From positions 40,906 through 104,905 of the forward strand of contig CAWENF010000004.1 of assembly GCA_963810275.1 (NCBI GenBank): DNA of 64,000 nt, read 5' to 3'. This DNA comes from an uncultured archaeon. GTDB taxonomy: Archaea; Thermoproteota; Bathyarchaeia; Bathyarchaeales; Bathycorpusculaceae. The stretch's first letter is position 1; each line of letters opens with the position of its first letter. A model generated the notes under the pieces. The model was not told where the DNA came from. It was given only the letters and a program-made list of their open reading frames with translations, and did no database searches. Of this stretch, positions 2,559 through 63,293 are shown piece by piece. The position numbers and the translations under genes are program-made.

Positions 2559-4478
2559 ATGCTTATCCAGGAACTTATTGTCGAGAACTTTATGAGTTAT
2601 GAGTACGCTCGCGTGCCATTTAAATCGGGCGTCAACATAATTGGGGGACCGAATGGTGCAGGCAAATCTAGTCTGCTACTTGCCATATCGGTGGGTTTGG
2701 GGCAGACCAGCACCGAGCGCAGCCGCAAACTTAGCGACCTAATCCGATGGGGCCAAGACCAAGCCCGCGTCACACTCATTTTAGATAATCAAAAACAGGG
2801 TGCAAGAAGACCTGAACAAAAATACAACAAAGACCATCTCTTCCTAACACGGTTTTTGCGCAGAGACGGCAAATACTGGTTTGAACTCGAAAACAAAGTC
2901 GCCAGCAAACAGGACGTGGAACGCTTGTTGGGCAAGTTCGGTGTGGACCCAAACAATATGCTAATCATAATGCACCAGAATATGGTGGAACAGTTTAGTG
3001 TGCAAAGTAACGTCACCAAACTTCACATGGTAGAAGAAGCCGTGGGTTTGGAGCCTTTCCGCGAGAACGTTGTGCAAGCAAAAACAAAACTAACTCGCAT
3101 CCTCACTCAGGAGGAATCTGTTGGGAAACTGCTTGAGCAGGCAGAGCAGACACTCAACTACTGGCGCGAGCAGTACGAGAAGTTTCAGGAGAAAAAGCAG
3201 CTTCAACTCAAACGACGTTTTCTTGACCGCGAATTATTATGGGCTGAGGTGGAACGACGAGAAACCATCGTAAAGGCGTTGCAGACTAACCATAACAAGA
3301 CGCAGGTTGCATTGGCTAAAATCGAGGACGAACGACAATCCCTAATTGGTGAGTTGGACGGGCACCAGACCCAGCAGAAGACGCTTCGCAGCCAAATGCG
3401 GGGCTTGTTTGATGAGCGGCTGGATTTGGAGAGAAGAATCGCTCAGAACCAGTCGCAGTTTTCGCTCGTGGAGCAGTTGATATCCGAAGCCGAGATGCTT
3501 GAAAAAGTCGTTGACACCAGCCTGTTTAAGCTGCTACGGGTTGATAGCCTGCGCGAAATGCTTGAGGTATCTCAAAAGCAAATAAAGACAACAACAGAAC
3601 AGATTCAGGATAACCAGTCCAAACTCCAAAAGCTGGAAACAAACACCGATAAAATTGCCGCTTACTCACTGGATAAACGGGTAACCATTGCCCTTTTAAA
3701 TTTCCGCCGCGACCGAGCAGTAAAAGACCGTGAAAACACCGAAAAACAGCTAAAAGAGGTGCAGGACAACCTTGCCGCTGCAGTTGCAAAAGCACAGGAA
3801 TCGGGCGAACGCATAGCAGTGCTAAAATCCACCTCTGAAATCCAGGAGGAAATGGGCTTAACCGATGGCCACCTTCAAGCGTTGCAGGGTGTATCGGAGG
3901 AGATTGAGCGCCAATATGAGTCATACTCCAAACTGTATTTGGAGCTTAAGGAGAAGGCGCAGTTGGTGGCTGAGAACCGCGAGAAGACTCTTGAGGAAGT
4001 GAAGACTCGGTTTGTGGCTTGGCGCAGTGTTATGGAAAACCTCATTGACCGTGTGAATGTGGAATACCAGCGCATAATGAGCCAAACCCTTGCCACAGGC
4101 GAGGTGTTACTGTCGAACCCTCAGGACATCGAAACTGCCGGGCTAGAAATCTATGTTGGCTTCAAAGGTAGCAAACCAGTCGCGTTGGACGCCTACACGC
4201 AGAGTGGCGGTGAACGTACAACCGCTACCATGGGCTTTCTACTTGCTTTACAGCAGCATGTGCGTAGTCCCTTCCGAGCAGTGGACGAATATGACATCCA
4301 CATGGACCCCAAAAACCGGGAAATGATAGCCAAAGTCCTTGTAGCAATTATTAAAGACGCTGCCTCGCAGTACGTCGTCATCACGCCCAGCCAAATAACA
4401 TTTGCCCAACGCGACGCAAACGTCATAACAGTGCAGAACTTGGAGGGCAAATCCGCAGTGCGCGAGGTGGTCAACTAA
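2559..4478 (+). CDS. SMC-family ATPase, SMC5/6-related (short, 639 aa)
   Basis: ENFMSY; Walker A GPNGAGKS; Q-loop MHQ; long coiled coil; signature QSGGER; Walker B/D-loop SPFRAVDEYDIHMD; VITP. Confidence 0.92.
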   Translation: MLIQELIVENFMSYEYARVPFKSGVNIIGGPNGAGKSSLLLAISVGLGQTSTERSRKLSDLIRWGQDQARVTLILDNQKQGARRPEQKYNKDHLFLTRFLRRDGKYWFELENKVASKQDVERLLGKFGVDPNNMLIIMHQNMVEQFSVQSNVTKLHMVEEAVGLEPFRENVVQAKTKLTRILTQEESVGKLLEQAEQTLNYWREQYEKFQEKKQLQLKRRFLDRELLWAEVERRETIVKALQTNHNKTQVALAKIEDERQSLIGELDGHQTQQKTLRSQMRGLFDERLDLERRIAQNQSQFSLVEQLISEAEMLEKVVDTSLFKLLRVDSLREMLEVSQKQIKTTTEQIQDNQSKLQKLETNTDKIAAYSLDKRVTIALLNFRRDRAVKDRENTEKQLKEVQDNLAAAVAKAQESGERIAVLKSTSEIQEEMGLTDGHLQALQGVSEEIERQYESYSKLYLELKEKAQLVAENREKTLEEVKTRFVAWRSVMENLIDRVNVEYQRIMSQTLATGEVLLSNPQDIETAGLEIYVGFKGSKPVALDAYTQSGGERTTATMGFLLALQQHVRSPFRAVDEYDIHMDPKNREMIAKVLVAIIKDAASQYVVITPSQITFAQRDANVITVQNLEGKSAVREVVN

Positions 4479-5303
4479 TGACGTCAAAAGAATCGCATGA
4501 GAAGCGTGTGGGCAAAGAGCGCCTGCAAGTTATCATCGACATGTGCACTGCGATTGAAACCCGTCAAGTTGATCCCTTCACGCTAAACGTTGACGACATC
4601 ATCGGTGTGGTGCAACAATATTTTCCTCACTGGAACCATCTTGAGGAGCTTAAACTCGACGCCGAAGCACTCCACCACCTTGCGTCTGTAGTGAAGATAC
4701 AGAGCGAATGGGTTAAGCACCGCTCTACCTCACTCTACACCGACCCTTTTCTGCTGGAAGAGAAAGATTCGCCAGACCAGCAAGCAAGGAATGCTTGACG
4801 TGTTCGCCTCCGCTTGGACACCTCTGGTGGAGTCTGAGCAGCTCACCCTAAACGCTTTGTCGCAGGGTCTGTTGTACTGGGAGGCACTGCCGCCTTTGGG
4901 CAACCGCTGGAAAGACATCAACGTCTCCGCAGTGGATGCGGGGCAAGTTAGCCGCGATGAGTTGGTTAAGCAGCGGGTGTTGGGCGAACGCGAATTCGGC
5001 GAGGAACTTGACTGCTACTGGCGCCAACTTAAAGACAAAGCGGCTGAGCACGGCGGAAAAATAGCGTATTGGGATTTTATCGGTGCTGCCACGTATGAGG
5101 AGACGGTTCAACGTGCTTTTCTCACAGCTTTCCTAGTAACATATGGGTATGCCACGCTGGAAGTTGACAGACTCGAAGAAACTATCACAATCATTCCACT
5201 GGAAACCCCCAGAACCGAAGCCCTATCTGTGCAGTCAACCTCCGTCCCAATTGCGGTCTCGGTGGAGGACTATCAGAACTGGAGAGAAGGAAAACAATCA
5301 TGA
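4478..5303 (+). CDS. Kleisin (ScpA/Nse4-like), split by a probable +1 A sequencing error near 4765
   Basis: ORFs 4478-4798 and 4791-5303 join (EEKIRQTSKQGMLDVF) if one A is removed from GAGAAAG. N-terminal kleisin helices (VDPFTLNVDDII...LDAEAL) and a C-terminal winged helix (YWDFIG...TVQRAFLTAFLVTYG). The start overlaps the smc stop (TAATG). Confidence 0.8.
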
Positions 5304-5911
5304 GTACCCGCAAAAAAGGAGTATATGCAGGCAAAATCAAAAAAGCCACTCAGATGCTGTTCTATAAGCGCCACGCTAAACCTGGCGTGAAGGGCTGGGA
5401 ACTCCACAAGGCGCTGGGCAGCGATTACCCTAAGGTGCTTGACGTCTTGGATGATTACCTAAAACCGATGGATTTGCAGGTTAAAACCGTTTTTGAGGAG
5501 GAAAAAACCCCCGAGAAGCCATCGATGGAAGAGCTAGATACAGCCCGTTTCTTTATCGCCCTACGCGACGTGGCTACAAAGGACAAGTTGATGGGCTGGC
5601 GAGTTGATGACCTCGCAGGCTTAGCAGTCACAATAAGCTACATAGTCGCTAAAAAGGGTCAGGCGCCAAGAAAAGACGTCGAGAAGCTGTTGAGTGAGAA
5701 AATCGCTAACTGGAAAGTCGGCTTAAACCTTGACCGCTACATCCGAAACGGCTACCTATCTCAAGACGACAAAGGGCAACTGTATTTGGATTGGCGCACG
5801 CGGGCTGAGGTGGACCAGAAGAAACTGATTGACATGCTGCTTTCGGCCGAAAAACAGGGTTCTGCTAACGAGGCGGATGCCGGCTCCTCTGGTTTGGGCG
5901 CTGAAGACTAA
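5300..5911 (+). CDS. KITE tandem winged-helix subunit (Nse3/MAGE- or Nse1-like)
   Basis: About 200 aa with two winged-helix-like halves, ending LDRYIRNGYL...LYLDWRTRAEV. ATGA overlap with the kleisin stop; third gene of the smc operon. Confidence 0.72.
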   Translation: MSTRKKGVYAGKIKKATQMLFYKRHAKPGVKGWELHKALGSDYPKVLDVLDDYLKPMDLQVKTVFEEEKTPEKPSMEELDTARFFIALRDVATKDKLMGWRVDDLAGLAVTISYIVAKKGQAPRKDVEKLLSEKIANWKVGLNLDRYIRNGYLSQDDKGQLYLDWRTRAEVDQKKLIDMLLSAEKQGSANEADAGSSGLGAED

Positions 5912-5913
5912 GC

Positions 5914-5936
5914 GCTTTTTTTGTTTCTTTTCTTCT
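5914..5936 (+). terminator. T-rich archaeal terminator after the smc operon
   Basis: GCTTTTTTTGTTTCTTTTCTTCT immediately after the stop codon. Confidence 0.5.
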
Positions 5937-10613: not shown

Positions 10614-13511
10614 ATGCAACCCCAAACCCCAAACGTTTACGCATTGCTCGCCAAACCTGTGCGGGACGCAGCCGCCCAACAGGGCCTAGTAGCGCCCACG
10701 TTGCCCCAAACCAAAGCCTTCCCACATATCCTCAACGGTGAAAACGTCTTGCTGATTGCGCCAACGGGCACAGGAAAAACCGAAGCCGTAATACTCCCAA
10801 TTCTATCCAAACTGGTAGAACAGAAAGCGGAAAGCCCCCAACCCATCGGTATTCAGCTCCTTTACATCACTCCGCTGCGCGCCCTAAACCGCGACATGCT
10901 ACGGCGGCTTATGCACTGGGGACAACAACTCAGCATCGGCGTGGAGGTCAGGCATGGTGACACCGAACAAAAAATCAGGCGCCTACAAGCCAAAAAACCA
11001 CCCCAAATCCTCGTAACTACACCTGAAACCCTCCAAGCGATTCTTCCCGGACAGCAAATGCGCCGACACCTCAAAAATGTACAATGGGTGGTTGTGGACG
11101 AAGTTCACGACTTAGCTGGCAGCAAACGAGGCGCACAACTCTCGCTGGGACTGGAGCGGCTACGTATGGCAACGGCGAGTGAGTTCCAGCGCATCGGACT
11201 TTCAGCCACAATCGGCAACCCAAAAGAAATCGCCGCTTACCTTGCTGGAAGCCGCCGCAGAATCGCCGTCGTCAAAGTCTCAACAGAGAAGTGCTACCGC
11301 TACACCGTAGAGTTCCCCACGCCAACAGACGCAGACTACGATTTAGCCGCCAAACTCGATGCTTCACCCGAAGCAGCAGCACGCATACACCGCATCCTCG
11401 AACTTGTTGACTCGCACGTTTCCACATTAATTTTCGTTAACAGCCGCACGGTCGCCGAAGTACTCGGTCACAAACTGGCAACGCTGGGACGAGAGGATAT
11501 TGCAGTGCATCATGGCTCTATCTCAAAAGAGGAACGTATCCAAATCGAGGACCAATTCAAAGCTGGGCAACTAAAAGCCATCATCTGCACGAGTACGCTG
11601 GAGCTGGGTATCGACGTGGGGCAGGTGGATTTGGTGGTGCAGTACATGTCACCCCGCCAAGTTAGCAGTCTTGTTCAGCGGGTTGGACGAAGCGGACACA
11701 GTCTTGGGCGTGAGTCAGAGGGTGTAATCGTAACGGTGTATCCTGACGATATGCTTGAGGCGTTGGCGTCAGTTAAGAACGCTAAAGCGGGGCTGGTGGA
11801 ACCCATTGGGATGCATACTGGCGCGTTGGATGTTTTGGCGCATCAAATTGCTGGCACCCTGATGGATAGCGGGGACCCCCTAACCGTAGCGGAAATAGGC
11901 ACTCTCGTGCGCAGAAGCAGCCTCTACCGCCGCTTCTCCAAAACCCAGTTTTTGGACCTACTGCGCTTTTTAGACAGCCTCAACCAAATAAGATTAAACG
12001 AAGACGAGACAGTTTTGACTAAAACCAGAAAAACCCGACCCTACTACTATGAAAACCTATCAATGATACCAGATGAACGCCGCTACCCCGTCATAAACGT
12101 CATATCTGATTGCAAAATCGGCACTCTCGGAGACGAATTCATGGCTCTCCACGCCCGAATCGGATTGAGTTTTATCATGAAGGGCAAGGTTTGGCGTATT
12201 GTGCAGATCGAGGAGGAAGTGGGCATTGTTCATGTGGTGCCGTCTGAGGATCCGTTGGCGTCGGTTCCGGGTTGGGACGGCGAACTACTGCCTGTGTCTT
12301 TTGATTTGGCGCAACAAACCGGTAAGGATAGAGAAAAAATCGCTGCCACACTAAACCAGACGGGCTCAATGGAAGTAGCGTCGGAGATATTGTCTAAAGA
12401 GTTAGGTTCAGATAAAGCCAGCATGCAAAACGCCATCGCTGAAATACACGAACAAATCCAAAACAGTGCTCCTCTGCCCACACAAAACCACATTGTTTTA
12501 GAAGTCTATGACCGCTATCTCGTCGTACACGCCTGTTTTGGCGAACTTGTAAACAAAGCCTTGGGCGGAGTCTTCGACGCAGTGCTCTCTGAGCGGGAAT
12601 TGATAAGCGGTTGGTGGACAGACGGCTACCGCATCCTAATTGAAGCCCCCAAAAAACTTAACAAATACGAACTCGCCAAGCTACCCGAAACACTCTTCAA
12701 CCTATCCGACGATTTATTCGATGCCGCTTTCAACCGCTATCTTGACGCTAAATTCCCGTTTGGGTACAAAATGAAGTTTGTGGCAGAACGCTTCGGCGCC
12801 CTCCCACGGGGTAAAACGATGAGTTACCAGCGCCAAGCCGAACTCAAATCTCGTTTCGACAACACACCTATTCACCGCGAAACCATCCGCGAGGCGCTCA
12901 TGGAAAAAGTTGACCTTGAAAAAGCCAAACAAGTCCTACACGGCATATCAGCAGGTAAAATCAAAGTCTCCACCTACCTAAGCCTCGAGAAGCCCTCACC
13001 ATTAGCGTACCACATTTTGTCACGTTACAGTGAAGTCACCGAACTCAAGGCGCCCGAAAAAGTCATAGTGGACAACATTGGCAAACTTAAAATGGCTATA
13101 GACGCTCGAGAAGTCAAGCTGCTATGCATGAAGTGCGGCGAATGGACGACAACGCAGAAAATCCGTGACCTTCCCGAGGAACCCTGCTGCGGGAACTGCG
13201 GATCAGGACTTTTGGCGCCTTTGTACCGCAGCCAAGACCTCGCTCACCTGCAGGATTCTTTGAAGCGACGGCGGGACGCTAAAGAGCTAACACCCGAAGA
13301 ACTAAAAGAGCTTAGCCAAGCACGACGCAAAGCGGATTTGTTTTTAAGTTACGGCAAACAGGCGGCTCGTGCGATGCAGGTTAAGGGCGTGGGTCCAGAG
13401 ACGGCGTCGCGAATACTGGGCAAGATGCATCCCGACGAGGATACGTTCTATTTGGATTTGCTTAAGGCAAAGATTCAGTTTTTGCGAACAAGAGAATACT
13501 GGGATAAATAG
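10614..13511 (+). CDS. lhr: Lhr-family SF2 ATP-dependent helicase with C-terminal Zn ribbon
   Basis: APTGTGKT, PLRALNRD, DEVH, LSAT, LELGIDVG, QRVGRSGH; C-terminal CMKC...CGNC and an HhH-like GVGPETASRI. Confidence 0.92.
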   Translation: MQPQTPNVYALLAKPVRDAAAQQGLVAPTLPQTKAFPHILNGENVLLIAPTGTGKTEAVILPILSKLVEQKAESPQPIGIQLLYITPLRALNRDMLRRLMHWGQQLSIGVEVRHGDTEQKIRRLQAKKPPQILVTTPETLQAILPGQQMRRHLKNVQWVVVDEVHDLAGSKRGAQLSLGLERLRMATASEFQRIGLSATIGNPKEIAAYLAGSRRRIAVVKVSTEKCYRYTVEFPTPTDADYDLAAKLDASPEAAARIHRILELVDSHVSTLIFVNSRTVAEVLGHKLATLGREDIAVHHGSISKEERIQIEDQFKAGQLKAIICTSTLELGIDVGQVDLVVQYMSPRQVSSLVQRVGRSGHSLGRESEGVIVTVYPDDMLEALASVKNAKAGLVEPIGMHTGALDVLAHQIAGTLMDSGDPLTVAEIGTLVRRSSLYRRFSKTQFLDLLRFLDSLNQIRLNEDETVLTKTRKTRPYYYENLSMIPDERRYPVINVISDCKIGTLGDEFMALHARIGLSFIMKGKVWRIVQIEEEVGIVHVVPSEDPLASVPGWDGELLPVSFDLAQQTGKDREKIAATLNQTGSMEVASEILSKELGSDKASMQNAIAEIHEQIQNSAPLPTQNHIVLEVYDRYLVVHACFGELVNKALGGVFDAVLSERELISGWWTDGYRILIEAPKKLNKYELAKLPETLFNLSDDLFDAAFNRYLDAKFPFGYKMKFVAERFGALPRGKTMSYQRQAELKSRFDNTPIHRETIREALMEKVDLEKAKQVLHGISAGKIKVSTYLSLEKPSPLAYHILSRYSEVTELKAPEKVIVDNIGKLKMAIDAREVKLLCMKCGEWTTTQKIRDLPEEPCCGNCGSGLLAPLYRSQDLAHLQDSLKRRRDAKELTPEELKELSQARRKADLFLSYGKQAARAMQVKGVGPETASRILGKMHPDEDTFYLDLLKAKIQFLRTREYWDK

Positions 13512-15535: not shown

Positions 15536-15751
15536 GTCGCTGAAGCGGTACATATGTACGCGGCCGTACACCCGCACCTCCAGTATCCCTTCGGTTTCCA
15601 AAATTTTTAGGTGCTCCGCGGTTGCTGAGTAGTTCATATTTATTTTGCTAGCGATTTTTGAAACGTTTAGCTGTTGCAAAGTGTAGATTAACTTAAGAAT
15701 TCTCATGCGGGGCTTAGACGAGAAGACCTCTTCAATCTCCACGCCCAGCAC
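15482..15751 (-). CDS. Small ArsR-like winged-helix protein cotranscribed with cdc6
   Basis: FSSKPRMRILK...LNVSKIA...HLKILETEG; overlaps the cdc6 3' end. Confidence 0.8.
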   Translation of the reverse strand: MLGVEIEEVFSSKPRMRILKLIYTLQQLNVSKIASKINMNYSATAEHLKILETEGILEVRVYGRVHMYRFSDSARAKAVVALIETWENP

Positions 15752-16946
15752 CTTTCTCTCTTTCCAGATTCGCCGCCATTTCCCGCTCCAACTCCACAGA
15801 TGGAATCGTGGGTAAACTAATGCGGTTAGTGCGTCCTCGCGACTCCGAAGCGCCTACTTCAGTTTTTAAAACCCCGAGTTTGTCAAGATACTGTACGTAA
15901 TTCCAGATTTGCGTGTGACTTTTAGTGGACTCCTCAAATTCCTCGCAGACTACACCATAAGCTTTCTCTGCTTCGCCAATGCTGACGTAGGCTTCAGGGT
16001 TCTCTTTAAAGTACCGTGCGATTGCGAGCAGGAATAGTTTTTCGTGGAAACTCAACGAGGCGAGTTCGCTGCGACGCAGTGTGGGGACAATGGCTGAGAC
16101 TGCGTTTCGGACGCATTCAGCCGCCACCGCCGATAAGTCGGCTGCATCGGCGTATTTACCCGCTCGCCATAACAACTCGATGCCGAAGCGTGCGTTGCCC
16201 GTCTCCGAGTGTGCCAACTCAGCCACCAAATCTACCACGTCATCGTCTACTGTGCCCAACTCGAACGCTAAAGCGACGCGACAGTTTAGGATATCAATAA
16301 GCTGGGGTTTGCCATAGCGTTCCAACCGGATGATACTTCTTTGCAGTGTACTTTGGGCGCTTTCGTCAAGCTTCCTAATAGCCTCCAAGTTGCGCATGAT
16401 AAAAATGAACGAGAGGCGCTGAGGTTTGCCCTGCCGCATCTCTGACAGCCTCGTCAACTTGTAAACCGCGTCTGAGCCTTCTTTTTCGATTAGGCTGTCA
16501 AACTCGTCCAGCGCAAGAACCATCGTTGCCTCTTCCTCATCAAGCACTTGCATTAGAGTGCCCATGATTTCTTCAGCACCATATCCGCGTGCAGGGAAGT
16601 TTGGGCGAAACACAGAAACCGCTCTATGCATAATGGGCTGCAGGGCGCCGCGAAATTCGCGACAATTAACATGTACATAATTAAATTTTTGTCCTCTACG
16701 TCGAGACTGCGAAGTCAGATCTGCACCGAAATGCTGCGCCAACGCCGTTTTGCCTGTACCAACATCACCCGTCAAAATCACTCGTTGCGCCATACGGTCG
16801 GGACAATGCAATACGAACCCGAAAAACTCCATTAGAAGACGTTGTTCTTTTTCGCGGTGCGGCAGCTCTGCTGGAATGTAGTTTATGTCCAGTTTCGATT
16901 CATCTTTGAATACAGTTTGGCGCGCTGCCACTTTTATGGTCTCCAT
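15732..16946 (-). CDS. cdc6: Cdc6/Orc1 replication initiator
   Basis: YIPAELPHRE, Walker A GDVGTGKT, Walker B LDEFD, GNARFGIELL, and a C-terminal winged helix with RGRT. Confidence 0.95.
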   Translation of the reverse strand: METIKVAARQTVFKDESKLDINYIPAELPHREKEQRLLMEFFGFVLHCPDRMAQRVILTGDVGTGKTALAQHFGADLTSQSRRRGQKFNYVHVNCREFRGALQPIMHRAVSVFRPNFPARGYGAEEIMGTLMQVLDEEEATMVLALDEFDSLIEKEGSDAVYKLTRLSEMRQGKPQRLSFIFIMRNLEAIRKLDESAQSTLQRSIIRLERYGKPQLIDILNCRVALAFELGTVDDDVVDLVAELAHSETGNARFGIELLWRAGKYADAADLSAVAAECVRNAVSAIVPTLRRSELASLSFHEKLFLLAIARYFKENPEAYVSIGEAEKAYGVVCEEFEESTKSHTQIWNYVQYLDKLGVLKTEVGASESRGRTNRISLPTIPSVELEREMAANLEREKGAGRGD

Positions 16947-18106: not shown

Positions 18107-18892
18107 TTAATTTAAATGGAAGAATGATTCCAATCTTGAGTTTTCGGCTTTCTTCAGTACTTTTGCGCATTCTTTGGGGTTTAAGGCTTTAAACTCCAGT
18201 CCCATCTGTTCTAGTATCCGTTGCACGTCTTTACCTAGCGCTGGCGCCACGAGGACTGCGCGAACCGGCTTTGTGGCTTTCGCTTTAATCGGCTCAATGT
18301 ACTTTGCCAATTGGAGGGCTGCTTCTTTAGATGCAGTTCTGCGCTTCACCTCGACGATTACAAGTTTGCCGTTCTTATCTTCGCCGTATATGTCTACGAA
18401 GCCGGGTTCCACATGCTTCTCCCAGCTAATCGGCTTAAACCCTTCCTCAAGCAGCGACGGCTTAAGCAGAATCGCCCTGTGCATGTCATCTTCACTGGCG
18501 TGCAACGTAAATTCGCCGCTGTCTTGAAGATTTAGAGCGGTTACTCCAATGATGGTTTTAAATGTGACTTTTACGCTTTCGCGGGGCTTCTGGCGAACCC
18601 CATGAACTTCAAGTGTGCCATCTTTGATTTCTACATGGAACACGCTGCCGCTGGGCTGCCAATTCACCGGTTCATACCCTACAGGGCGATGCACAAGCAG
18701 GCTGCCATCAGATTTCACAATTAGCAGCCGTTCACCATACTCTAACGTCGAGTTTGCCCGACCAGCATAAACCACTCTGCACTCGCCAGCAACCACCAGT
18801 GTTCTGCGTTGCGCAATCGTTTTTTCGATGTTTACTGCTGCTTCAGCTAACTCGGGATGTGTTAAACATGCAACTTTGTTGCTTACCGCCAA
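18107..18892 (-). CDS. nucS: Mismatch-specific endonuclease NucS/EndoMS
   Basis: YAGRANS, KSDGSLLVH, PVNW, and RecB-type D..EVK..QL..Y motifs. Start placed at TTG 18892. Confidence 0.93.
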   Translation of the reverse strand: MAVSNKVACLTHPELAEAAVNIEKTIAQRRTLVVAGECRVVYAGRANSTLEYGERLLIVKSDGSLLVHRPVGYEPVNWQPSGSVFHVEIKDGTLEVHGVRQKPRESVKVTFKTIIGVTALNLQDSGEFTLHASEDDMHRAILLKPSLLEEGFKPISWEKHVEPGFVDIYGEDKNGKLVIVEVKRRTASKEAALQLAKYIEPIKAKATKPVRAVLVAPALGKDVQRILEQMGLEFKALNPKECAKVLKKAENSRLESFFHLN

Positions 18893-18953
18893 ATTGATGC
18901 GCCACCTATTTAGGATGCATTGAGGGTACATAAGATTTCTTGAGGTAAACAAG

Positions 18954-27538: not shown

Positions 27539-30426
<2,888 letters not shown>

Positions 30427-31238: not shown

Positions 31239-31706
31239 ATGAGATGTCCATACTGCAACTCAGAAAACTCAAAAACACTTGAAACACGCGACTCCCCAGA
31301 GAACACTACACGCAGACGAAAAGAATGCGTCAACTGCGGCAAACGTTACACCACCTACGAATATCTGGAAACCGTTGAGCTCGTGGTACGTAAAAAAGAT
31401 GGCGACCTCCAACGGTTTGACGTCAACAAAATCATAGGCGGACTGCAGAAAGCCTGTGAGAAACGCCCCGTAACCATGAGCCAAATCAACGAGTTAGCAG
31501 ACAAAGTCCGCCAAGACTTGATGAATAAAGGAACTGAGGAAGTCGCATCCGCAGAAATCGGCGATTTAATAATGAAGTACCTCAAAAAAGTGGATCGGAT
31601 CGCCTACATTCGTTTCGCTTCGGTTTACAAGCAATTTGAAGAGCCTGAAGATTTCAGGCGATTAATCTCGGAAGTGAAGAAAAATGAAGTTCGTACTAAA
31701 ACGTGA
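31239..31706 (+). CDS. nrdR: Transcriptional repressor NrdR
   Basis: MRCPYC...RRRKECVNCGKRYTTYE Zn ribbon, ATP cone, and AYIRFASVY. Confidence 0.96.
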   Translation: MRCPYCNSENSKTLETRDSPENTTRRRKECVNCGKRYTTYEYLETVELVVRKKDGDLQRFDVNKIIGGLQKACEKRPVTMSQINELADKVRQDLMNKGTEEVASAEIGDLIMKYLKKVDRIAYIRFASVYKQFEEPEDFRRLISEVKKNEVRTKT

Positions 31707-33811
31707 TAGTAAATTAGAACCCTTTGACCAAGAACGCATTACAGTAGCCATTTACAAAGCTGCAAAAGCAGTCGGCGGTAAAGATAAAGAGCAGGCTAAA
31801 AAAATTAGTGACGACGTCGTAGCTGAACTTAACCGACTCTATGGCGATGACGGTGTCCCCACAGTTGAGGAAATTCAGGATCTCGTAGAAAAATGCCTCA
31901 TCGAAAACGGACACGCCCAAACAGCCAAAGCCTACATCCTCTACCGCAAACAACACAACGACATGCGCGAGTTAGCGGCACTTCTGAGCAGCTCCGACAT
32001 GGTCGACCAGTATATAGAAGTAGAAGACTGGCGCGTAAAAGAAAACAGCAACATGAGCTACTCATTGCAAGGCTTAAACAACTACCTCTCTTCAACAGTC
32101 ATCGCTAAGTACTGGATCGCCCGTATATACCCCGAAGACATCGCAGCAGCCCACTTCTCAGGTGACATTCACATCCACGACCTAGGCGTCTTGGGACCAT
32201 ACTGTGTAGGCTGGGACGTCTCAGACCTCCTCTTATCTGGATTTGGTGGAGTGCACGGCAAAATCGAGAGCAAACCCGCCAAACACTTCCGAACCGCCCT
32301 TGGACAAGTGGTGAATTTCTTTTACACCCTTCAAGGCGAAGCAGCAGGTGCGCAGGCGTTTAGCAACTTCGACTCCTACCTTGCACCTTTCATACGCTAC
32401 GACCACCTAAACCAAAGAGACGTTGAACAGGCACTGCAAGAATTCTTCTTCAACATGAACGTGCCCACCCGCGTCGGCTTCCAAACCCCATTCACAAACC
32501 TCACCTTAGACCTGAACGTACCCGAATTCATGAAAGACGACGCCGTCATATACAACGGAAAAGTCACAGGTGACACCTACGGCGACTTCTCAAAAGAAAT
32601 GGAGATGTTCAATCTCGCCTTTGCCAAAGGTATGGAGCAGGGCGACTCAAAAGGGCGCGTTTTTACCTTCCCCATCCCAACCTACAACATCACCAAGGAC
32701 TTTGACTGGGATTCGCCAACTTCACAGGCAATCTTTGAAGTAACCGCCAAGTATGGTGTGCCGTACTTTAGCAACTTTGTTAACAGCGACATGAAACCCG
32801 AAGATGTCCGTAGCATGTGTTGCCGACTACGCATCGACAATCGTGAGCTGCGCAAACGAGGCGGTGGCTTCTTTGGCGCTAATCCCCTCACAGGCAGCAT
32901 AGGCGTAGTAACGTTGAACCTGCCCCGGGTCGGCTATCTCTCAAGGGACGAGGATGATTTCTTTGAGAAACTCAGCGGGCTTATGGAAACTGCTAAAACC
33001 AGCCTCGAACTCAAACGCAAAGTACTCGAAGGCTTCACTGAGAAAGGTCTTTACCCTTACTCGCGCCGCTACCTTCGTCACGTCAAAGAAGGGCACGACC
33101 GATATTGGAAGAACCACTTCTCCACAATCGGCATAGTCGGTGTCAACGAAGCCATCCTAAACCTGCTTGGGCAAAACATCGCCTCCAAAGACGGACAAGC
33201 ATTCGCAGTAAAGATGCTAACCTATATGCGTCAACGCCTCTCAGAGTACCAGGAGGAAACAGGCGCCATCTACAACCTCGAAGCCACACCCGCCGAGGGT
33301 ACCGCCTACCGCCTTGCGCGCCTTGACCGCAAACGCTACCAGCGACATAATTTTTGCCAATCAAAGACAAATCGTGTCCGAGCATGCTGAGCCTTTCTAC
33401 ACGAACTCGTCTCAATTGCCCGTGGACTTCTCAGGCGACCTATTCGAAGCACTTGAGCATCAGGAATCTTTGCAGACACTCTACACTGGTGGAACAGTCT
33501 TCCACATCTTCCTAGGTGAACGCCTGCCCACCTGGAAATCCGCTGCGGAACTCATCAAAAAAGTTAGCTGGAACTCACGCCTACCTTACTTCACGCTGTC
33601 GCCTACGTTTAGCATTTGCCCGACACACGGATACACAGCAGGCGAACATCGAGTTTGCCCCACGTGTGGCTCAAGAAGCGAAATATACAGCCGTGTCGTC
33701 GGTTACCTGCGTCCCGTTGATCAATGGAACGACGGTAAACAAGCAGAGTTTGGCATGCGTACGACCTTTGACCGCTCAACAGTAACAAAAACAGCGCCGA
33801 TAATAGCTTAG
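31684..33811 (+). CDS. nrdD: Class III anaerobic ribonucleoside-triphosphate reductase (probable +1 C error near 33340)
   Basis: N-terminal ATP cone, SMCCRL, TPAEG, Zn site CPTH...CPTC, and glycyl-radical loop YSRVVGYLRP. Confidence 0.95.
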
Positions 33812-43466: not shown

Positions 43467-44433
43467 ATTGCACTCGACATCTTAAGCATCATCGTCTTTC
43501 CAGGTGTATTATTCCTGCTTCTGCTGGCGTTTTTCTACGAGTGGATAGATAGAAAAACCTACGCTAAAATCCAAAACCGCTACGGACCGCTAAAAGCTGG
43601 TCCAGCTGGACTTCTGCAGCCCTTCGCTGACTTCGTTAAAGTTGCTATCCAAAGAAGACATAGCACCCGCAGCATGCGACAGACTTCTTGTTTACTGCAA
43701 CACCTATAATTTACCTCACCTGCCTTTAGTGGCGCTATTTCTTGGTCCCAATAGCAAGTTCCACAGCCATAGCTGCATTTGAAGGTGATTTAGTTTTTGT
43801 TATGTTCATCTTCTCACTCATGATAATCACGGTGTTTTTGGCGGCTGGAGTTCCAGAAACCGTTATAGTACAATTGGTGGTGTCCGCGCTATGTTGCAGA
43901 TGATGAGTTTTGAAATCCCCATGGCGCTCGCACTTGAGTGGACCAGCAATTGCAGCAAAAAGCCTCTCTATTAGCACGATTTCTCAGTGGCAAGATACGC
44001 AGACTTGGTTGGTTATTCTTCAGCCCATCGGATTTGTTGATTTTGGTTATTTGTTTGATGGCGGAGTTGAAACTGCCCCCTTTAATATTCCCGAGTCGGA
44101 GTCAGAAATTGTGGCGGGTTGGCGTACCGAATTCAGCGGCAGAAAATTTGCGCTGATACGCTTGGGCAAAAATCTCGAACTCGTCTTAGCCTCAGCTCTT
44201 AATCGCAGCACTATACTCTAGGCGGCATAAACGATTTATTCTTCATACCAGCCGCAATAGTCATATTTTTAATAAAAACCATCGTACTCGTGGTGCTATT
44301 GCTCTCCTTCCTAAGAGCAATATTCGCGCGGTTACGCCTTGACCAATCAATCGCAGGCATGTGGCGATACCTCTTACCACTGGCTATCCTTCAGATAATC
44401 TTAGTAGAATTCGGAATAGGCATAATGATCTAA
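43467..44433 (+). CDS. NuoH/HyfC-like subunit (multiple frameshifts)
   Basis: EWIDRKTYAKIQNRYGP...GLLQPFADFVK, PFNIPESESEIVAGWRTEFSG and ARLRLDQ motifs across frames. Confidence 0.85.
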
Positions 44434-46697: not shown

Positions 46698-47171
46698 TTA
46701 GTAGAAAAAACTGCCAACCCTACGCCGAATTCTTCGCGCGGAAAACAATAAATCCCGAACATCAACTGGCAAATGCACATCCTGCCAACATCTTTCCGCC
46801 TCCACCGACCCACCAACCGCCTTCACAGCCTTCAAAGCATAAAGCGCCGCCCCCAAACTGTGGTCTGCCATATGTGCTGTCGCAACCGCATGCCCCATGC
46901 TACGAGCCACAGCCTCCGAAGCCGTATCCGAAACCTCCCTTGCCAGTTTGTGGCAGTTCGCAGCGGCTTTTCGTGCTTCGCCAACCGTTGCTTTACCCTC
47001 AGCCCATGATTTGCCTACTTCGAGGGCATTTTGAAGGCGATGGTCCATAGTTTCCCCGAAGTAAGGAAATACATGTTCGGCGCAACGGCAAGCCCAAAAC
47101 ATCAACAATTGATGCTGCTGTTTTGTGAGTGGTCCTCCTCTGTGTTGTGCGATGAAGCGTTTGTCCCTCAT
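46698..47171 (-). CDS. Imm5-like putative immunity protein
   Basis: RDKRFIA.HRGG...WACRCAEHV...ARSMGHAVATAHMADHSLGAALYA...ER.WQ. Confidence 0.8.
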   Translation of the reverse strand: MRDKRFIAQHRGGPLTKQQHQLLMFWACRCAEHVFPYFGETMDHRLQNALEVGKSWAEGKATVGEARKAAANCHKLAREVSDTASEAVARSMGHAVATAHMADHSLGAALYALKAVKAVGGSVEAERCWQDVHLPVDVRDLLFSARRIRRRVGSFFY

Positions 47172-47368
47172 TTGCTTAAAACCTTTTTTATTGCAGTAGA
47201 TCAACAGGAAAATGGAATTTTAAGGATTGCCTAAAAATGAAACGGCTGATAGATCGGTAAGGGCCCGCATATAATTGTAGTGTGCAACTTTAAGGTTTTT
47301 AGGTGTCTTGTGGTGGAGGTGGCGGATTCAGAGTGATAAAACGCGTAATTTACATGGGGTTGTTATTC

Positions 47369-61244: not shown

Positions 61245-62217
61245 TTAACGCTTCAAAACTACCTTAAGAGCATGCCCGGATGGGTCTTCTATAGCGGCAA
61301 AGGCATCCTCGACGTCATAAAGGCTGAAGCGGTGCGTTATCAATCCAGCCACATCCACCTTCTTCTCCGCTATTAGCTGTACCGCTTGTGGATACTCCAA
61401 CGGCGAGATGTACATAGTGAAAAACTGCGCTTCATCTGCATCTTCCAAATTCAAAAAGCCCTTCGACTCACCGATAAGCGCTACCTTCCCCGTTTTACGC
61501 ACTAAAAATGGCGTTTGCTCCACAGTTTTTTGGGTTCCGGCGGCTTCCACCACAAAATCCGAGCCATACCCTGTGAGTTTGCGCACGGTTTTGGCTACGT
61601 CGGTGGCGTCTGCGTTTATGACTTCTTCTGCGCCGTATCTTTTGGCGTACTCTAACCTGTAGTCCTTAATGTCTACCGCTATGACTCGACAACCTTTCAG
61701 AACTGCCAATTGCGTCATCAACAACCCGATGGCGCCTTGCCCCACAACGGTAACCCAATCGCCCAAGTTTGGTTGGAGGTAGTTAAGAACACGCAACGCC
61801 AGCGCTACAGGTTCCACAACAGCCGCCTCCTCATCTGACACGCCAGCAGGCACAGGAATAAGGCTTCTCTGTTGGCATCGCTTTGTGTTCCACAAAAAAG
61901 CCGTCCCGCGTTAACCCGTAGAATTTGCCATTAATGCAGTACGTTGGGTGACCTTTGAGGCAGAAGATACAGTGTCCGCAATTAACAATCGGCACCATAA
62001 CCACCCGCTCGCCTGTGTCCGTTCTAATGCCGCATGCATCATGACCTATTATCCTACTTTTTTTCATCCATCGCCAGTCGTCGCGGTAAAAGTGCATGTC
62101 GGTGCCGCAGATGTTGCCCGCCAAAAAATCTACCAATATCTGTCCAATCTTAACCTTGGGTTCAGCTACGTCTTCGATTTTGATGTTGTGTGGTCCACGG
62201 TAAACGGCTGCCTTCAA
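61245..62217 (-). CDS. Zn-dependent medium-chain dehydrogenase (probable +1 error near 61872)
   Basis: ICGTD, GHD, structural Zn CGHCIFC...C, EP and GQGAIG motifs. Confidence 0.9.
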
Positions 62218-62571: not shown

Positions 62572-63129
62572 TTACTCGACCACGTAACGGTAAGTCACGT
62601 GCTCGCCTGCAGTTGTACTTTTACGGGTAATCTTTAGAACATCACCTGGCTGCGCGCCGATGGCTTTCACTGCTGGGTCGCCGCTGCGAATTTGAGGCAT
62701 TTGGTAGGGTTTAACCTTGAACTGGTTAAGTAACTCTTTCTTTTCTTTCTCGCTTATTATTTCGTGGAAGGGCACAAGAGCGTGCTCAAAGATATCAAAC
62801 ACTGGGAACGATTTGGGCAGCAATTCGACGTTTTTCTTTTTTGCGCCGAGTTTAACAGCGTGGGTATAGCGTCCTTCAGTGACGACTATGGCTCTTTCGA
62901 GTTCTTTTTCTTTCAACACCTTGTAGAGGGTGTTCATGGCGGCGATGCCCACGGTGGCTTCGCCAAGGATGCACCAAACAACGGCGCGTTCTTTGTCCTG
63001 TGGAATGTCAATGATGTAGGCGTATGCGCCTTCAAACTTTTCTTTTTCGACAAGCTTGTACTTTCTTAGTTTAATCAGAACTTCCGCTTTACGTTCTTCA
63101 ATTGTTAATAGTTTGTTAATAGTACTCAA
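62572..63129 (-). CDS. rpoH: RNA polymerase subunit Rpo5/RpoH with an RPB5-like N-terminal domain
   Basis: C-terminal HALVPFHEII...PQIRSGDP...GDVLKITRKSTTAG...YRYV, plus an N-terminal extension of about 110 aa. Confidence 0.93.
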   Translation of the reverse strand: MSTINKLLTIEERKAEVLIKLRKYKLVEKEKFEGAYAYIIDIPQDKERAVVWCILGEATVGIAAMNTLYKVLKEKELERAIVVTEGRYTHAVKLGAKKKNVELLPKSFPVFDIFEHALVPFHEIISEKEKKELLNQFKVKPYQMPQIRSGDPAVKAIGAQPGDVLKITRKSTTAGEHVTYRYVVE

Positions 63130-63293
63130 ACCACGTACCCTCAAGATAGAATACGGAACCTAAAACAAGTATTTACCCCTTAAACTTTTCTCTTATAAAA
63201 GAAGCTGAAAACAACAAAAATCGAGTTTTAACAGCAAAAAACATTTTACATCAGACCTGCACAGCTAAACAACCTTTTGAGGCGGCGGCTGAT

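What the first reader, a model, noticed from the sequence alone, without database searches (positions are those of the whole stretch)
2559..5911. Complete archaeal Smc5/6-like operon: SMC5/6-type ATPase + Nse4-like kleisin + Nse3/MAGE-like KITE
Seen: three genes are translationally coupled (TAATG and ATGA overlaps) and end in a T-tract. The C-terminal head reads QSGGERTTATMGFLLALQQHVRSPFRAVDEYDIHMD. Knowledge: prokaryotic Smc (condensin) heads read roughly LSGGEK...P.PF..LDE..AALD. Eukaryotic SMC5 (QSGGERS...L.ALQ...PFRVVDE...MD) and SMC6 ([14 protein letters not shown]) look like this protein (motifs recalled from memory). Eukaryotic Smc5/6 is the only eukaryotic SMC complex that uses KITE subunits. 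Inference: this is a minimal one-SMC/one-kleisin/one-KITE relative of Smc5/6, possibly acting in chromosome organisation or in restricting extrachromosomal DNA. SMC5/6-related archaeal ATPases such as Sulfolobales coalescin are known from phylogenomics. I know of no functional characterisation of a three-subunit complex like this.
Basis: partly seen in the sequence, partly recalled or inferred. Interest (0 to 1): 0.9.

Follow-up and report, generated by a model that had tools for sequence, protein, structure and literature searches.

The report
Hinge-less archaeal Smc5/6-like operon
A Bathyarchaeia chromosome carries the three-gene archaeal relative of the eukaryotic Smc5/6 DNA-maintenance complex, a kind already described by comparative genomics, but its motor protein is half-sized and appears to have no hinge domain.

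Summary
Window 2559-5911 (+) holds three overlapping genes ending in a hairpin plus T-tract: a 639-aa SMC ATPase, a kleisin and a 203-aa tandem winged-helix protein. The kleisin is split into 106- and 170-aa ORFs by one extra base at 4763-4766.

- The ATPase groups with eukaryotic SMC5 and SMC6, not canonical Smc (support 97/93; AU p=0.006).
- The kleisin matches only Nse4 models, weakly.
- The third protein folds like Nse3/MAGE, Nse1 and JetB.
- The same gene order recurs in two distant archaeal contigs.

This is not new. SMC5/6-related archaeal SMCs (Yoshinaga & Inagaki 2021) and three-gene SMC5/6-related operons in TACK and Asgard archaea (van Hooff et al., bioRxiv) are in print. Coalescin (ClsN) belongs to a different, zinc-hook family.

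The predicted arm is only about 150 residues. Its apex is a ~10-residue loop with no hinge domain. The protein has no cysteine. 49 of 55 archaeal-like representatives are equally short. A fold of two distal arms supports a parallel homodimer.

The frameshift is probably an assembly error, because at least three other genes in the window are split.

No functional study was found. Interest is moderate.

The parts
2559..4478 (+). SMC5/6-related SMC-family ABC ATPase, 639 aa. Predicted layout: N-head 1-165, arm helix 165-317, apex loop 318-327, return helices 328-415, 425-441 and 449-509 (joint-like breaks), C-head 510-639. No hinge domain and no cysteine.
   Evidence: Pfam SMC_N E=1.2e-33. Walker A at 30-37, Q140, QSGGER 548-553, Walker B/D-loop/H-loop DEYDIHMD 576-583, with the key residues invariant in 65 sequences. 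AF2 model mean pLDDT 87.2. PDB profile ranking. Tree and AU test. No Cys.
4478..4798 (+). N-terminal part of the Nse4-like kleisin. Residues 1-95 match orthologues. The last 11 codons are out of frame.
   Evidence: The ORF reads in register with residues 1-95 of the 272-278-aa orthologues printed beside it. No Pfam family on its own.
4760..4766 (+). Frameshift site: one extra base in GAGAAAG (AAA at 4763-4765), moving the reading frame from 2 to 0.
   Evidence: Three-frame translation compared with orthologues reading LLEEKIRQTSK.
4791..5303 (+). C-terminal part of the kleisin (170-aa ORF; homology in this frame begins about 4767). It holds the central region and the Nse4_C winged-helix domain.
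   Evidence: Pfam Nse4_C E=1.7e-4, 22.2 bits against a cut-off of 26. 20 of 22 orthologues hit Nse4_C and nothing else. Profile against PDB: top hits are yeast Nse4 at E=0.018 and human EID3 at 0.091. Atlas eukaryotic Nse4 cluster 0.91.
5300..5911 (+). KITE subunit, 203 aa: two winged-helix domains, a basic N-terminus, an acidic tail, and no RING or cysteine.
   Evidence: AF2 model pLDDT 73.6. Foldseek PDB hits: MAGE-G1 5hvq_D 5.2e-5, 7dg2_C 1.9e-4, NSE1 5hvq_C 2.1e-4, JetB 8as8_C 3.1e-4, then MAGE-A3/A4, ScpB and MukE. Atlas MAGE clusters 0.95 and 0.92. No Cys.
5896..5927 (+). Terminator-like hairpin followed by a T-rich tract at the operon end.
   Evidence: Scan hit at 5896-5917 with tail TTTTTGTTTC. 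Sequence read. Six terminator-like sites were found in the region against 5.1 expected, so the scan alone is weak; the position is what matters.

Best explanation
This is the chromosomal operon of a Bathyarchaeia archaeon for the archaeal 'SMC5/6-related' SMC complex. It encodes one SMC ATPase, one Nse4-like kleisin and one Nse1/Nse3-like KITE.

Shown by computation:
- The head has all ATPase motifs and is closest to SMC5 and SMC6.
- The arm is a short antiparallel coiled coil of about 150 residues with a joint-like break.
- The apex is a bare loop, with no hinge domain and no zinc hook.
- The three genes are overlapping and syntenic in distant archaea.

Inferred mechanism:
- Two copies of the ATPase form a homodimer. 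Their heads sandwich two ATP.
- Their distal arms (residues about 284-326 and 371-382) pack side by side in parallel, taking over the role of a hinge.
- The kleisin N-terminal domain binds the neck of one subunit. Its C-terminal winged helix binds the cap of the other.
- A KITE dimer sits on the middle of the kleisin.
- ATP-driven head engagement then clamps DNA on top of the heads, as in Smc5/6, MukBEF and Wadjet.

With arms about half to a third the usual length, the complex is more likely a compact DNA clamp or short-step translocase for genome maintenance than a large-ring loop extruder. Its cellular role is not known.

The kleisin frameshift in this sequence is most likely an assembly error.
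For: Identity of the ATPase:
- Single sequence against PDB: the five best distinct sequences are SMC6 or SMC5 (best 2.3e-27); Smc follows at 2.2e-24.
- 65-sequence profile against PDB: the top 10 distinct sequences are all SMC6 (273.5-266.4 bits) or SMC5 (260.6-240.3). Then come a Pyrococcus Smc construct 224.4, SMC2 205.3, SMC3 186.7, SMC1 154.7, SMC4 152.8 and Rad50 65.7.
- Head-domain ML tree of 64 rows: the window, 22 short and 5 long archaeal relatives and 20 SMC5/6-like proteins form one clade of 48 rows at 97/93, apart from 14 canonical Smc. The tree is rooted on E. coli SbcC and RecN.
- The two SMC5/6-like sub-clades were labelled from one member each: SMC6 (P0356) and SMC5 (P0371).
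- AU test: holding the archaeal family together with canonical Smc is rejected, p=0.006.

Kleisin. NCBI names one orthologue 'non-structural maintenance of chromosomes element 4'.

KITE fold. Atlas.

Synteny:
- L001 and L002 have the same three genes in the same order.
- Locus tags NWE93_02025/02030/02035 cover SMC, kleisin and KITE. ACQCN6_05325/05330 cover kleisin and KITE.

No hinge:
- DSSP of the AF2 model, mean pLDDT 87.2.
- Zero cysteines.
- Inter-head spacer is 241-374 aa in 49 of 55 archaeal-like representatives, against 704-813 aa in 17 SMC5/6-like ones.

Arm dimer:
- ESMFold2 complex of two copies of residues 230-410: score 0.55 (median of three runs), best of 3 controls 0.00.
- That mark is reached by 20 of 30 proteins solved as pairs of one chain and by 1 of 23 solved as single chains.
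- The runs agree in at least 97% of contacts, and partner pLDDT is at least 84.
- The contacts are symmetric (295-295, 292-292, 303-303).

Housekeeping character:
- The best 120 listed ATPase clusters are 76-100% identical, and the best 120 KITE clusters are 78-100% identical.
- Neighbours are core genes: NusA-like KH, Lhr, Orc1/Cdc6, NucS.

Published framework: van Hooff et al. bioRxiv 10.1101/2024.01.07.573240 (sections 8 and 14 read). Yoshinaga & Inagaki 2021 (sections 10 and 18 plus passages).
Against: - The kleisin evidence is weak at sequence level. Nse4_C scores 22.2-23.9 bits, below Pfam's 26-bit cut-off. PDB profile E-values are only 0.018-0.09.
- The KITE has no sequence-level match to MAGE, Nse1, ScpB or MukE. 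That is 0 of 18 members at E<=10 in Pfam and no relevant PDB hit. Its fold matches JetB almost as well as Nse3.
- My tree lacks SMC1-4, archaeal Rad50, ASRP/ClsN and JetC. MukB was dropped because it had no C-head match. The two outgroups are very long branches that join each other.
- Synteny outside Bathyarchaeia rests on two contigs.
- The absence of a hinge and the arm dimer are predictions. Coiled coils are easily laid side by side by such models.
- The kleisin is broken in this sequence, so the complex may be non-functional in this organism.
- No experiment on any member was found.
Confidence: 0.85

Rival explanations
1. A Wadjet-like or Smc5/6-like defence module that recognises and restricts plasmids or viral DNA, rather than a chromosome-maintenance complex.
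For: The KITE fold matches JetB of Wadjet nearly as well as Nse3 (8as8_C 3.1e-4, 8dk1_F 8.3e-4). Short arms would suit sensing of small circular DNA. Eukaryotic Smc5/6 is described as a restriction factor for viral replication (PMC9458440, abstract as listed).
Against: No JetD-like nuclease gene flanks the operon. Kleisin and KITE have no PADLOC hit, and JetC scores only 20.6 bits. The genes are very conserved (76-100% identity among the best 120 listed ATPase clusters) and sit among core genes. The head tree places the family with SMC5/6, though JetC was not in that tree.
Confidence: 0.08
2. The locus is a decaying pseudogene cluster in this organism. The kleisin frameshift is real and the complex is no longer made, or it is made with a two-piece kleisin.
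For: The frameshift is in the sequence. No intact kleisin closer than 87% identity was listed, although a 100%-identical ATPase from a second contig is listed (P0001). The two kleisin ORFs overlap by 8 nt (ATGCTTGA, 4791-4798), and the second starts at a methionine conserved in orthologues. A split product is therefore conceivable.
Against: Both halves remain similar to orthologues (the C-part is 87% identical to P0391) and show no further stops. 116 of the 120 listed orthologues are intact at 272-278 aa. At least three other genes in the same 64 kb are split in the same way, namely NrdD, Zn-ADH and a TPP enzyme/POR beta, and a NuoH-like gene is present only as a fragment. That points to indel errors in the assembly. 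The flanking SMC and KITE genes are intact.
Confidence: 0.15
3. A canonical condensin-type Smc-ScpA-ScpB complex that merely looks divergent.
For: NCBIfam's best hit is SMC_prok_A (163.7 bits). Foldseek's top hit for the ATPase model is a Pyrococcus Smc head-plus-joint construct. ScpB is among the KITE fold hits.
Against: 163.7 bits is far below the 729-bit cut-off. The C-head HMM gives canonical Smc 42-62 bits against 70-103 for SMC5/6-like proteins. The tree and AU test reject grouping with canonical Smc. The kleisin hits Nse4_C and no ScpA model.
Confidence: 0.03
4. A member of the archaea-specific SMC-related proteins (ASRP: ClsN/coalescin, Sph1/2) or a Rad50/RecN-type repair ATPase. These are also about 600 aa with short coiled coils.
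For: Similar size and hinge-less coiled-coil architecture. There is a weak NCBIfam ASRP hit (57.9 bits) and Rad50 hits (74.3 bits). PADLOC LmuB scores 63.9 bits.
Against: The ASRP cut-off is 300 bits. ASRPs and Rad50 carry a zinc hook (PMC9389158 passages), while this protein has no cysteine. Rad50 scores 65.7 bits against 273.5 for SMC6 with the family profile. The ATPase is encoded with a kleisin and a KITE; from my own knowledge, not checked here, Rad50, RecN and ASRP are not known to have these partners. No Mre11 gene is adjacent.
Confidence: 0.03

Closest known systems
SMC5/6-related archaeal SMC complexes (SMC + Nse4-related kleisin + Nse1/3-like kite operons of TACK and Asgard archaea; van Hooff, Raas, Tromer & Eme, bioRxiv 10.1101/2024.01.07.573240; 'SMC5/6-related aSMC' of Yoshinaga & Inagaki 2021, GBE, PMC8665677)
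   Same: Same three components, same operon logic and the same phylogenetic affinity to SMC5/6. Ca. Bathyarchaeota is named among the source lineages. A homodimeric SMC is proposed there as well.
   Different: No difference in kind; I take this locus to be a member. The texts I read do not mention the half-length arm or the missing hinge. 'Shorter' occurs 0 times in either paper, and hinge is mentioned only in general introductions. Their supplements could not be read (bioRxiv supplements are closed).
Eukaryotic Smc5/6 core (Smc5-Smc6-Nse4-Nse1-Nse3)
   Same: Closest head sequences. Nse4_C-type kleisin. Tandem winged-helix KITE of MAGE/Nse type.
   Different: One SMC gene instead of two, and one KITE instead of Nse1 plus Nse3. 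No RING, since the KITE has no cysteine. No Nse2 or Nse5/6 gene in the operon. Inter-head spacer is about 330 aa here against 704-813 aa. No hinge.
Wadjet JetABC and MukBEF (bacterial SMC-kleisin-KITE complexes)
   Same: A homodimeric SMC with one kleisin and a KITE dimer. JetB and MukE are among the KITE fold matches.
   Different: No sequence-level relation of kleisin or KITE to JetA or JetB. No JetD gene. MukB is so distant that its C-head was not detected by the family HMM. From my own knowledge, not checked here, both have hinge domains and long arms.
RecN, Rad50 and ASRP (short-arm or hook-type SMC-like ATPases)
   Same: Overall architecture: an ABC head plus a shortish coiled coil whose tip, rather than a globular hinge, would mediate dimerisation.
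   Different: No zinc hook. Heads are far closer to SMC5/6. Kleisin and KITE partners are present.
'Hinge-less' environmental SMC homologues assigned to marine Actinobacteria (PMC12153180, passages read)
   Same: An SMC-family head and coiled coil with no hinge domain.
   Different: A bacterial lineage related to canonical Smc. That paper never uses the words kleisin or SMC5 (0 occurrences each).

Membership tests
SMC5/6-related archaeal SMC complex | ATPase head groups with eukaryotic SMC5/SMC6 to the exclusion of canonical Smc | tested here: met
   Clade of 48 rows at 97/93. AU p=0.006 against the alternative. PDB profile ranking. Limits: no SMC1-4, archaeal Rad50, ASRP or JetC in the tree.
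SMC5/6-related archaeal SMC complex | Kleisin of the Nse4 type | tested here: met
   Nse4_C is the only Pfam family hit, in 20 of 22 orthologues (best 5.3e-6), though below the gathering score. Top PDB profile hits are Nse4 and EID3. Atlas lead.
SMC5/6-related archaeal SMC complex | KITE of the Nse1/Nse3-like type | tested here: inconclusive
   The fold is a KITE with Nse3/MAGE and Nse1 as best matches, but JetB is nearly as good. There is no sequence-level match. The Atlas points to MAGE clusters.
SMC5/6-related archaeal SMC complex | The three genes form one operon | tested here: met
   Overlapping stop and start codons. Same order in L001 and L002. Consecutive locus tags.
SMC proteins in the strict sense | Walker A, Q-loop, signature, Walker B, D-loop and H-loop in a split ABC head | tested here: met
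   Motif positions. Key residues invariant in 65 sequences.
SMC proteins in the strict sense | Globular hinge dimerisation domain at the coiled-coil apex | tested here: not met
   The AF2 model shows helix 165-317, loop 318-327 and helix 328-415. The inter-head spacer of about 330 aa leaves no room for a hinge. No SMC_hinge domain in Pfam.
SMC proteins in the strict sense | Long (~50 nm) antiparallel coiled-coil arm | tested here: not met
   The outgoing helix is about 150 residues. My estimate is roughly 22 nm.
Eukaryotic Smc5/6 holo-complex | Heterodimer of two SMC paralogues and two KITE paralogues, with Nse1 carrying a RING | tested here: not met
   One SMC gene and one KITE gene in the operon. 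The KITE has no cysteine. The rest of the genome was not available.
Eukaryotic Smc5/6 holo-complex | Nse2 SUMO ligase and Nse5/6 loader subunits | not tested
   Not in the operon. The 64-kb window was not searched for them specifically, and the genome beyond it is unknown.
ASRP (ClsN/coalescin, Sph1/2) | Zinc-hook CxxC at the coiled-coil apex, and the NCBIfam ASRP model above cut-off | tested here: not met
   No cysteine. 57.9 bits against a 300-bit cut-off.
Wadjet (JetABCD) | JetA/JetB/JetC models and a JetD nuclease gene | tested here: not met
   PADLOC gives JetC 20.6 bits and no hit for kleisin or KITE. No nuclease gene is adjacent.
Rad50/SbcC | Zinc hook and an adjacent Mre11/SbcD nuclease | tested here: not met
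   No cysteine. Neighbours are a kleisin and a KITE. SbcC is a distant outgroup in the tree.

The most novel reading that the evidence does not exclude
Most archaeal relatives of Smc5/6 may be hinge-less. On this reading a kleisin- and KITE-bound SMC works with arms about 150 residues long, joined only by a parallel four-helix packing near the tip.

The apex would be an exchangeable module within one family. It is a bare loop in 49 of 55 representatives. It is a conserved mid-point CxxC, hook-like, in three long forms. It is possibly a true hinge in others.

If so, the hinge and the long arms of Smc5/6 are not needed for the core kleisin-SMC mechanism. This family would then be the smallest natural SMC-kleisin-KITE machine, a direct handle on how the ancestor of Smc5/6 worked. 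I found no description of this in print (searches; text checks).
Probability: 0.45. Interest if true: 0.7.

Novelty: new member of a known kind. Interest (0 to 1): 0.45.

Why it matters
Smc5/6 is the least understood eukaryotic SMC complex, and published phylogenies trace it to archaeal ancestors. This locus is a clean example of the archaeal counterpart: three small genes, one copy of each subunit. Such a simple version would be far easier to reconstitute than the eight-subunit eukaryotic complex.

The half-length, hinge-less, cysteine-free ATPase raises a concrete and testable question. Can a kleisin-SMC machine hold or move DNA without a hinge? As a discovery of a gene system it is not new, because the operon type is already described.

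Tried and rejected
1. Synteny survey. It returned 77 loci, of which only L001 and L002 are this family. L037 and L062 are canonical 1174-1179-aa Smc, and nearly all the rest are bacterial Smc. The TACK/Asgard-wide survey was therefore not done.

2. KITE at sequence level. An 18-sequence profile against PDB gave only chance hits. Pfam on 18 members at E<=10 gave none of MAGE, Nse1, ScpB or MukE. NCBIfam gave nothing meaningful.

3. Foldseek of the ATPase model does not discriminate. Smc, Smc6, Rad50, Smc5 and cohesin all scored between E=3.5e-22 and 1e-17.

4. Nature of the roughly 400 extra residues in the long relatives.
- Pfam finds no SMC_hinge in P0256, P0257, P0269, P0299 or P0321.
- phmmer of their central blocks against the SMC5/6-like set gave nothing.
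- The central block of P0299 against PDB gave only a chance-level hit, E=0.012, to a GGDEF/EAL-type signalling protein.
- Whether any close archaeal relative has a true hinge stays open.

5. Programmed frameshifting at 4763-4766 was considered and rejected. 116 of 120 listed orthologues are single ORFs of 272-278 aa, and the window holds other split genes.

Two were labelled through PDB searches.

7. Literature and supplements.
- The supplement of PMC8665677 came back as 126 characters, and bioRxiv supplements are closed. I could not check whether this protein or its short relatives are in the published lists.
- The search for 'SMC5 6-related/-like' returned 0 papers, probably because the slash cannot be searched.
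- The Thermofilum 3C-seq preprint mentions SMC-family ATPases only in general terms.

8. The sigma-70 promoter scan is not meaningful for an archaeon.

Full report
**1. What is in the sequence**

On the + strand of window 2559-5911 there are four ORFs:
- 2559..4478, 639 aa
- 4478..4798, 106 aa
- 4791..5303, 170 aa
- 5300..5911, 203 aa

The first stop TAA (4476-4478) shares a base with the next ATG (4478-4480). The ATG at 5300-5302 overlaps the TGA at 5301-5303. A hairpin at 5896-5917 followed by TTTTTGTTTC closes the unit.

The two middle ORFs are one gene with a frameshift.
- Orthologues read ...SLYTDPFLLEEKIRQTSKEGM...
- The window reads ...LLEEK in frame 2 and IRQTSKQGMLDVF... in frame 0.
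- Of the 120 listed orthologues, 116 are 272-278 aa and the other four are 183-239 aa.

**2. The organism and context**

The closest homologues of all three proteins that carry a name are named Candidatus Bathyarchaeota or Bathyarchaeia, with a few named otherwise.

The neighbourhood is ordinary chromosome:
- a NusA-like KH protein
- an ArsR regulator
- an Lhr-type helicase (10614-13511)
- Orc1/Cdc6 (15735-16946, - strand)
- NucS
- ribonucleotide reductase
- a complex-I-like cluster

There is no sign of a mobile element or defence island around the operon.

**3. The ATPase**

Family scans:
- Pfam gives SMC_N at 1.2e-33.
- No NCBIfam model reaches its cut-off. SMC_prok_A scores 163.7 against 729, ASRP 57.9 against 300, and Rad50 74.3 against 700.

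Comparison with solved structures:
- As a single sequence, its five best distinct PDB sequences are SMC6 or SMC5 (best 2.3e-27), ahead of archaeal Smc at 2.2e-24.
- A profile of 65 family members sharpens this. The ten best distinct PDB sequences are all SMC6 (273.5-266.4 bits) or SMC5 (260.6-240.3 bits).
- After those come a Pyrococcus Smc head construct (224.4), SMC2 (205.3), SMC3 (186.7), SMC1 (154.7), SMC4 (152.8) and Rad50 (65.7). No MukB or JetC appears among the 60 shown of 147 matched.
- An HMM of the C-terminal head alone separates the groups. The family scores 115-215 bits, SMC5/6-like proteins 70-103 and canonical Smc 42-62.

My head-domain tree:
- It has 64 rows: the window protein, 22 short and 5 long archaeal relatives, 20 SMC5/6-like proteins, 14 canonical Smc taken from fetched loci, and E. 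coli SbcC and RecN. It kept 311 of 448 columns.
- E. coli MukB was left out because the C-head HMM did not find it. Four of my 18 chosen Smc loci gave no complete ORF.
- The careful IQ-TREE search places the window protein, all archaeal relatives and the SMC5/6-like proteins in one clade of 48 rows. Support is ultrafast bootstrap 97 and SH-aLRT 93. Canonical Smc lies outside.
- The two SMC5/6-like sub-clades were labelled from one member each. P0356 is SMC6 (9.4e-105 to human SMC6). P0371 is SMC5 (4.2e-139).
- The AU test rejects the best tree that holds the archaeal family together with canonical Smc (delta lnL 27.0, p=0.006).

Limits of this tree: the outgroups are very long branches that join each other. 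SMC1-4, archaeal Rad50, ASRP and JetC are absent.

The published trees do contain those groups and reach the same placement for 'SMC5/6-related aSMC', including Ca. Bathyarchaeota sequences. I could not confirm that this very protein is in their lists.

**4.

The protein is half the size of SMC5/6. The AF2 model (mean pLDDT 87.2, pTM 0.59) has the following layout:
- N-head, residues 1-165
- one helix, 165-317
- a loop, 318-327 (pLDDT about 58)
- helices 328-415, 425-441 and 449-509, whose breaks look like the SMC 'joint'
- C-head, 510-639

There is no room for a hinge domain and none is predicted. The protein contains no cysteine, so it has no zinc hook either.

This is not peculiar to this genome. 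Of the 150 listed representatives, 72 have both heads complete, and 55 of those are archaeal-like:
- 49 have an inter-head spacer of 241-374 aa
- one has 516 aa
- five have 611-736 aa
- the 17 SMC5/6-like proteins have 704-813 aa

The list is ranked by likeness to a short query, so it is biased towards short forms.

The long forms carry their roughly 400 extra residues exactly at the apex. Three of them (P0256, P0257, P0269) have a conserved CxxC at their mid-point, which looks hook-like. For P0299 and P0321 I could not show what the insert is. On the tree the long forms need at least three changes and are scattered among short ones.

The apex is poorly conserved and variable in length across the family. 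Within Bathyarchaeia it keeps an S/N-x-[FL]-K-[LF]-L-[RH] motif (SxFKLLR in most).

**5. How two hinge-less subunits might pair**

I folded two copies of the distal arm (residues 230-410, with the 65-row alignment). The result:
- Score 0.55 (median of three runs), with the best of 3 controls at 0.00.
- That mark is reached by 20 of 30 proteins solved as pairs of one chain and by 1 of 23 solved as single chains.
- The runs agree in at least 97% of contacts, and partner pLDDT is at least 84.
- The contacts are symmetric and parallel (295 with 295, 292 with 292, 303 with 303). They cover 284-326 and 371-382.

This supports, but does not show, a parallel four-helix packing near the tip that would keep both heads at the same end. 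Coiled coils are easy to lay side by side, so I treat this as a lead.

**6. The kleisin**

- The C-part hits Pfam Nse4_C (E=1.7e-4, 22.2 bits against a cut-off of 26).
- 20 of 22 orthologues hit Nse4_C and no other family (best 5.3e-6).
- By my count, 37 of the 120 listed relatives carry PF08743 in the precomputed column. One of the 120 is named 'non-structural maintenance of chromosomes element 4' by NCBI.
- The orthologue profile finds yeast Nse4 first (E=0.018) and human EID3 (0.091) in PDB.
- The Atlas places a eukaryotic Nse4 cluster at 0.91.

Each line is weak, but together they are consistent and there is no competitor.

**7. The third protein**

It has no Pfam, NCBIfam or PDB sequence match.

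The AF2 model (pLDDT 73.6, pTM 0.47) shows two winged-helix domains. Foldseek against PDB returns only KITE proteins at the top:

| Hit | E-value |
|---|---|
| MAGE-G1 (5hvq_D) | 5.2e-5 |
| Nse1-Nse3-Nse4 complex, chain 7dg2_C | 1.9e-4 |
| NSE1 (5hvq_C) | 2.1e-4 |
| JetB (8as8_C) | 3.1e-4 |
| Nse1-Nse3-Nse4 complex, chain 7dg2_A | 3.2e-4 |
| JetB (8dk1_F) | 8.3e-4 |

MAGE-A3/A4, ScpB and MukE follow. The Atlas lists an archaeal 'putative MAGE domain-containing' cluster at 0.95 and a eukaryotic MAGE cluster at 0.92.

The KITE fold is therefore established. Assignment to the Nse1/3 branch rather than the JetB branch is likely but not proven. The protein has no cysteine and hence no RING, as van Hooff et al. 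state for archaeal kites.

**8. Synteny**

My one genome scan was largely wasted on generic patterns. Two informative contigs came out:
- A 'Thaumarchaeota UBA160' contig: 582-aa ATPase, 236-aa kleisin, 186-aa KITE.
- A Thermofilales contig: about 580-aa ATPase, 247-aa kleisin, 197-aa KITE.

Both have the same order and abutting genes. Their kleisins and KITEs align with the Bathyarchaeia ones at 26-39% identity.

NCBI locus tags give two more cases. NWE93_02025/02030/02035 cover all three genes, and ACQCN6_05325/05330 cover kleisin and KITE.

**9. The frameshift**

Three other genes in this 64-kb window are split between adjacent ORFs:
- NrdD: 31684-33390 plus 33314-33811, covering Pfam profile positions 1-431 and 436-562.
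- A zinc alcohol dehydrogenase: 61831-62217 plus 61245-61895.
- A TPP enzyme / pyruvate:ferredoxin oxidoreductase beta: 29574-29900 plus 29878-30426.

A NuoH-like gene is present only as a fragment. Together with the high identity of both kleisin halves to intact orthologues, this makes an indel-prone assembly the likeliest cause. A real recent lesion cannot be excluded without reads.

**10. What is known**

- Yoshinaga & Inagaki 2021 (PMC8665677 and bioRxiv version; sections 10 and 18 plus passages read) defined 80 'SMC5/6-related aSMC' homologues, 66 of them from TACK archaea.
- van Hooff et al. (bioRxiv 10.1101/2024.01.07.573240; sections 8 and 14 plus passages read) showed Nse4-related kleisins and Nse1/3-like kites in TACK and Asgard archaea. 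These are organised with the SMC in operons encoding all three subunits, and the authors proposed homodimeric SMCs.
- Yoshinaga et al. 2022 (PMC9389158, passages) separate ClsN and Sph as zinc-hook ASRPs from this clade.
- I found no experimental work on any archaeal SMC5/6-related complex.
- I found no statement that these proteins lack a hinge. The only 'hinge-less SMC' report found concerns marine Actinobacteria-like sequences (PMC12153180).

These are searches of an open-access library. Subscription papers and supplements were not seen.

**11. Verdict**

The locus is a member of a kind already described by phylogenomics.

What remains of interest:
- the hinge-less, short-armed, cysteine-free architecture, which seems to be the common form near this protein
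- the complete lack of functional data

Interest is 0.45. The frameshift is most likely an artefact.

Noticed in passing
window 31684-33811 (+); 61245-62217 (-); 29574-30426 (+); 43910-44221 (+); 28487-29248 (+): Several genes besides the kleisin are split or truncated. NrdD is in two ORFs (Pfam profile positions 1-431 and 436-562). A zinc alcohol dehydrogenase is in two ORFs (ADH_N and ADH_zinc_N). A TPP enzyme/POR beta is in two ORFs. A NuoH-like gene survives only as a fragment. A POR_N protein lacks the first 82 profile positions. This suggests an indel-prone assembly or a decaying genome.
   Followed up: partly
window 10614-13511 (+); L002 3951-6788 (-): An Lhr-type helicase lies 4.7 kb downstream of the operon in the window. 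Its orthologue lies immediately next to the operon, convergent, in the Thermofilales contig. The two are 38% identical over 888 aa, E=8e-180. Two cases only, so this could be chance or a repair-related link.
   Followed up: partly
proteins P0256, P0257, P0269 (relatives), residues about 520-545: Three long (1016-1047 aa) relatives of the ATPase carry a conserved C-[DE]-[KR]-C-G-S motif at the exact mid-point of the protein. This is a zinc-hook-like apex inside an SMC5/6-related head clade. They sit next to a short form on the tree.
   Followed up: partly
window 15735-16946 (-) and 18110-18952 (-): An Orc1/Cdc6 gene lies about 10 kb from the operon and a NucS endonuclease gene about 12 kb away. 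Whether a replication origin is nearby was not examined.
   Followed up: no
window 54764-60469 (+): A 1901-aa protein combines DUF4011, AAA_11/AAA_12 helicase domains, an MTES_1575 restriction-endonuclease-like domain and DUF3320. It looks like a giant helicase-nuclease of unknown role.
   Followed up: no
window 62572-63144 (-): A 190-aa protein joins an RNA polymerase Rpb5 C-terminal domain to an N-terminal restriction-endonuclease-like domain (NA-iREase1, E=2.5e-6). It is therefore a two-domain Rpb5-like subunit rather than a C-domain alone.
   Followed up: no
window 46698-47204 (-): A 168-aa protein gives a strong Imm-5-like immunity protein match (E=1.4e-40). It sits beside a complex-I/hydrogenase-like gene cluster.
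   Followed up: no
window 5300-5911 (+), protein ends: The KITE has a basic N-terminus (10 K/R in the first 35 residues) and a poorly conserved tail that is acidic in the orthologues (5 D/E in the window's last 25 residues). The tail is the least confident part of the model.
   Followed up: no
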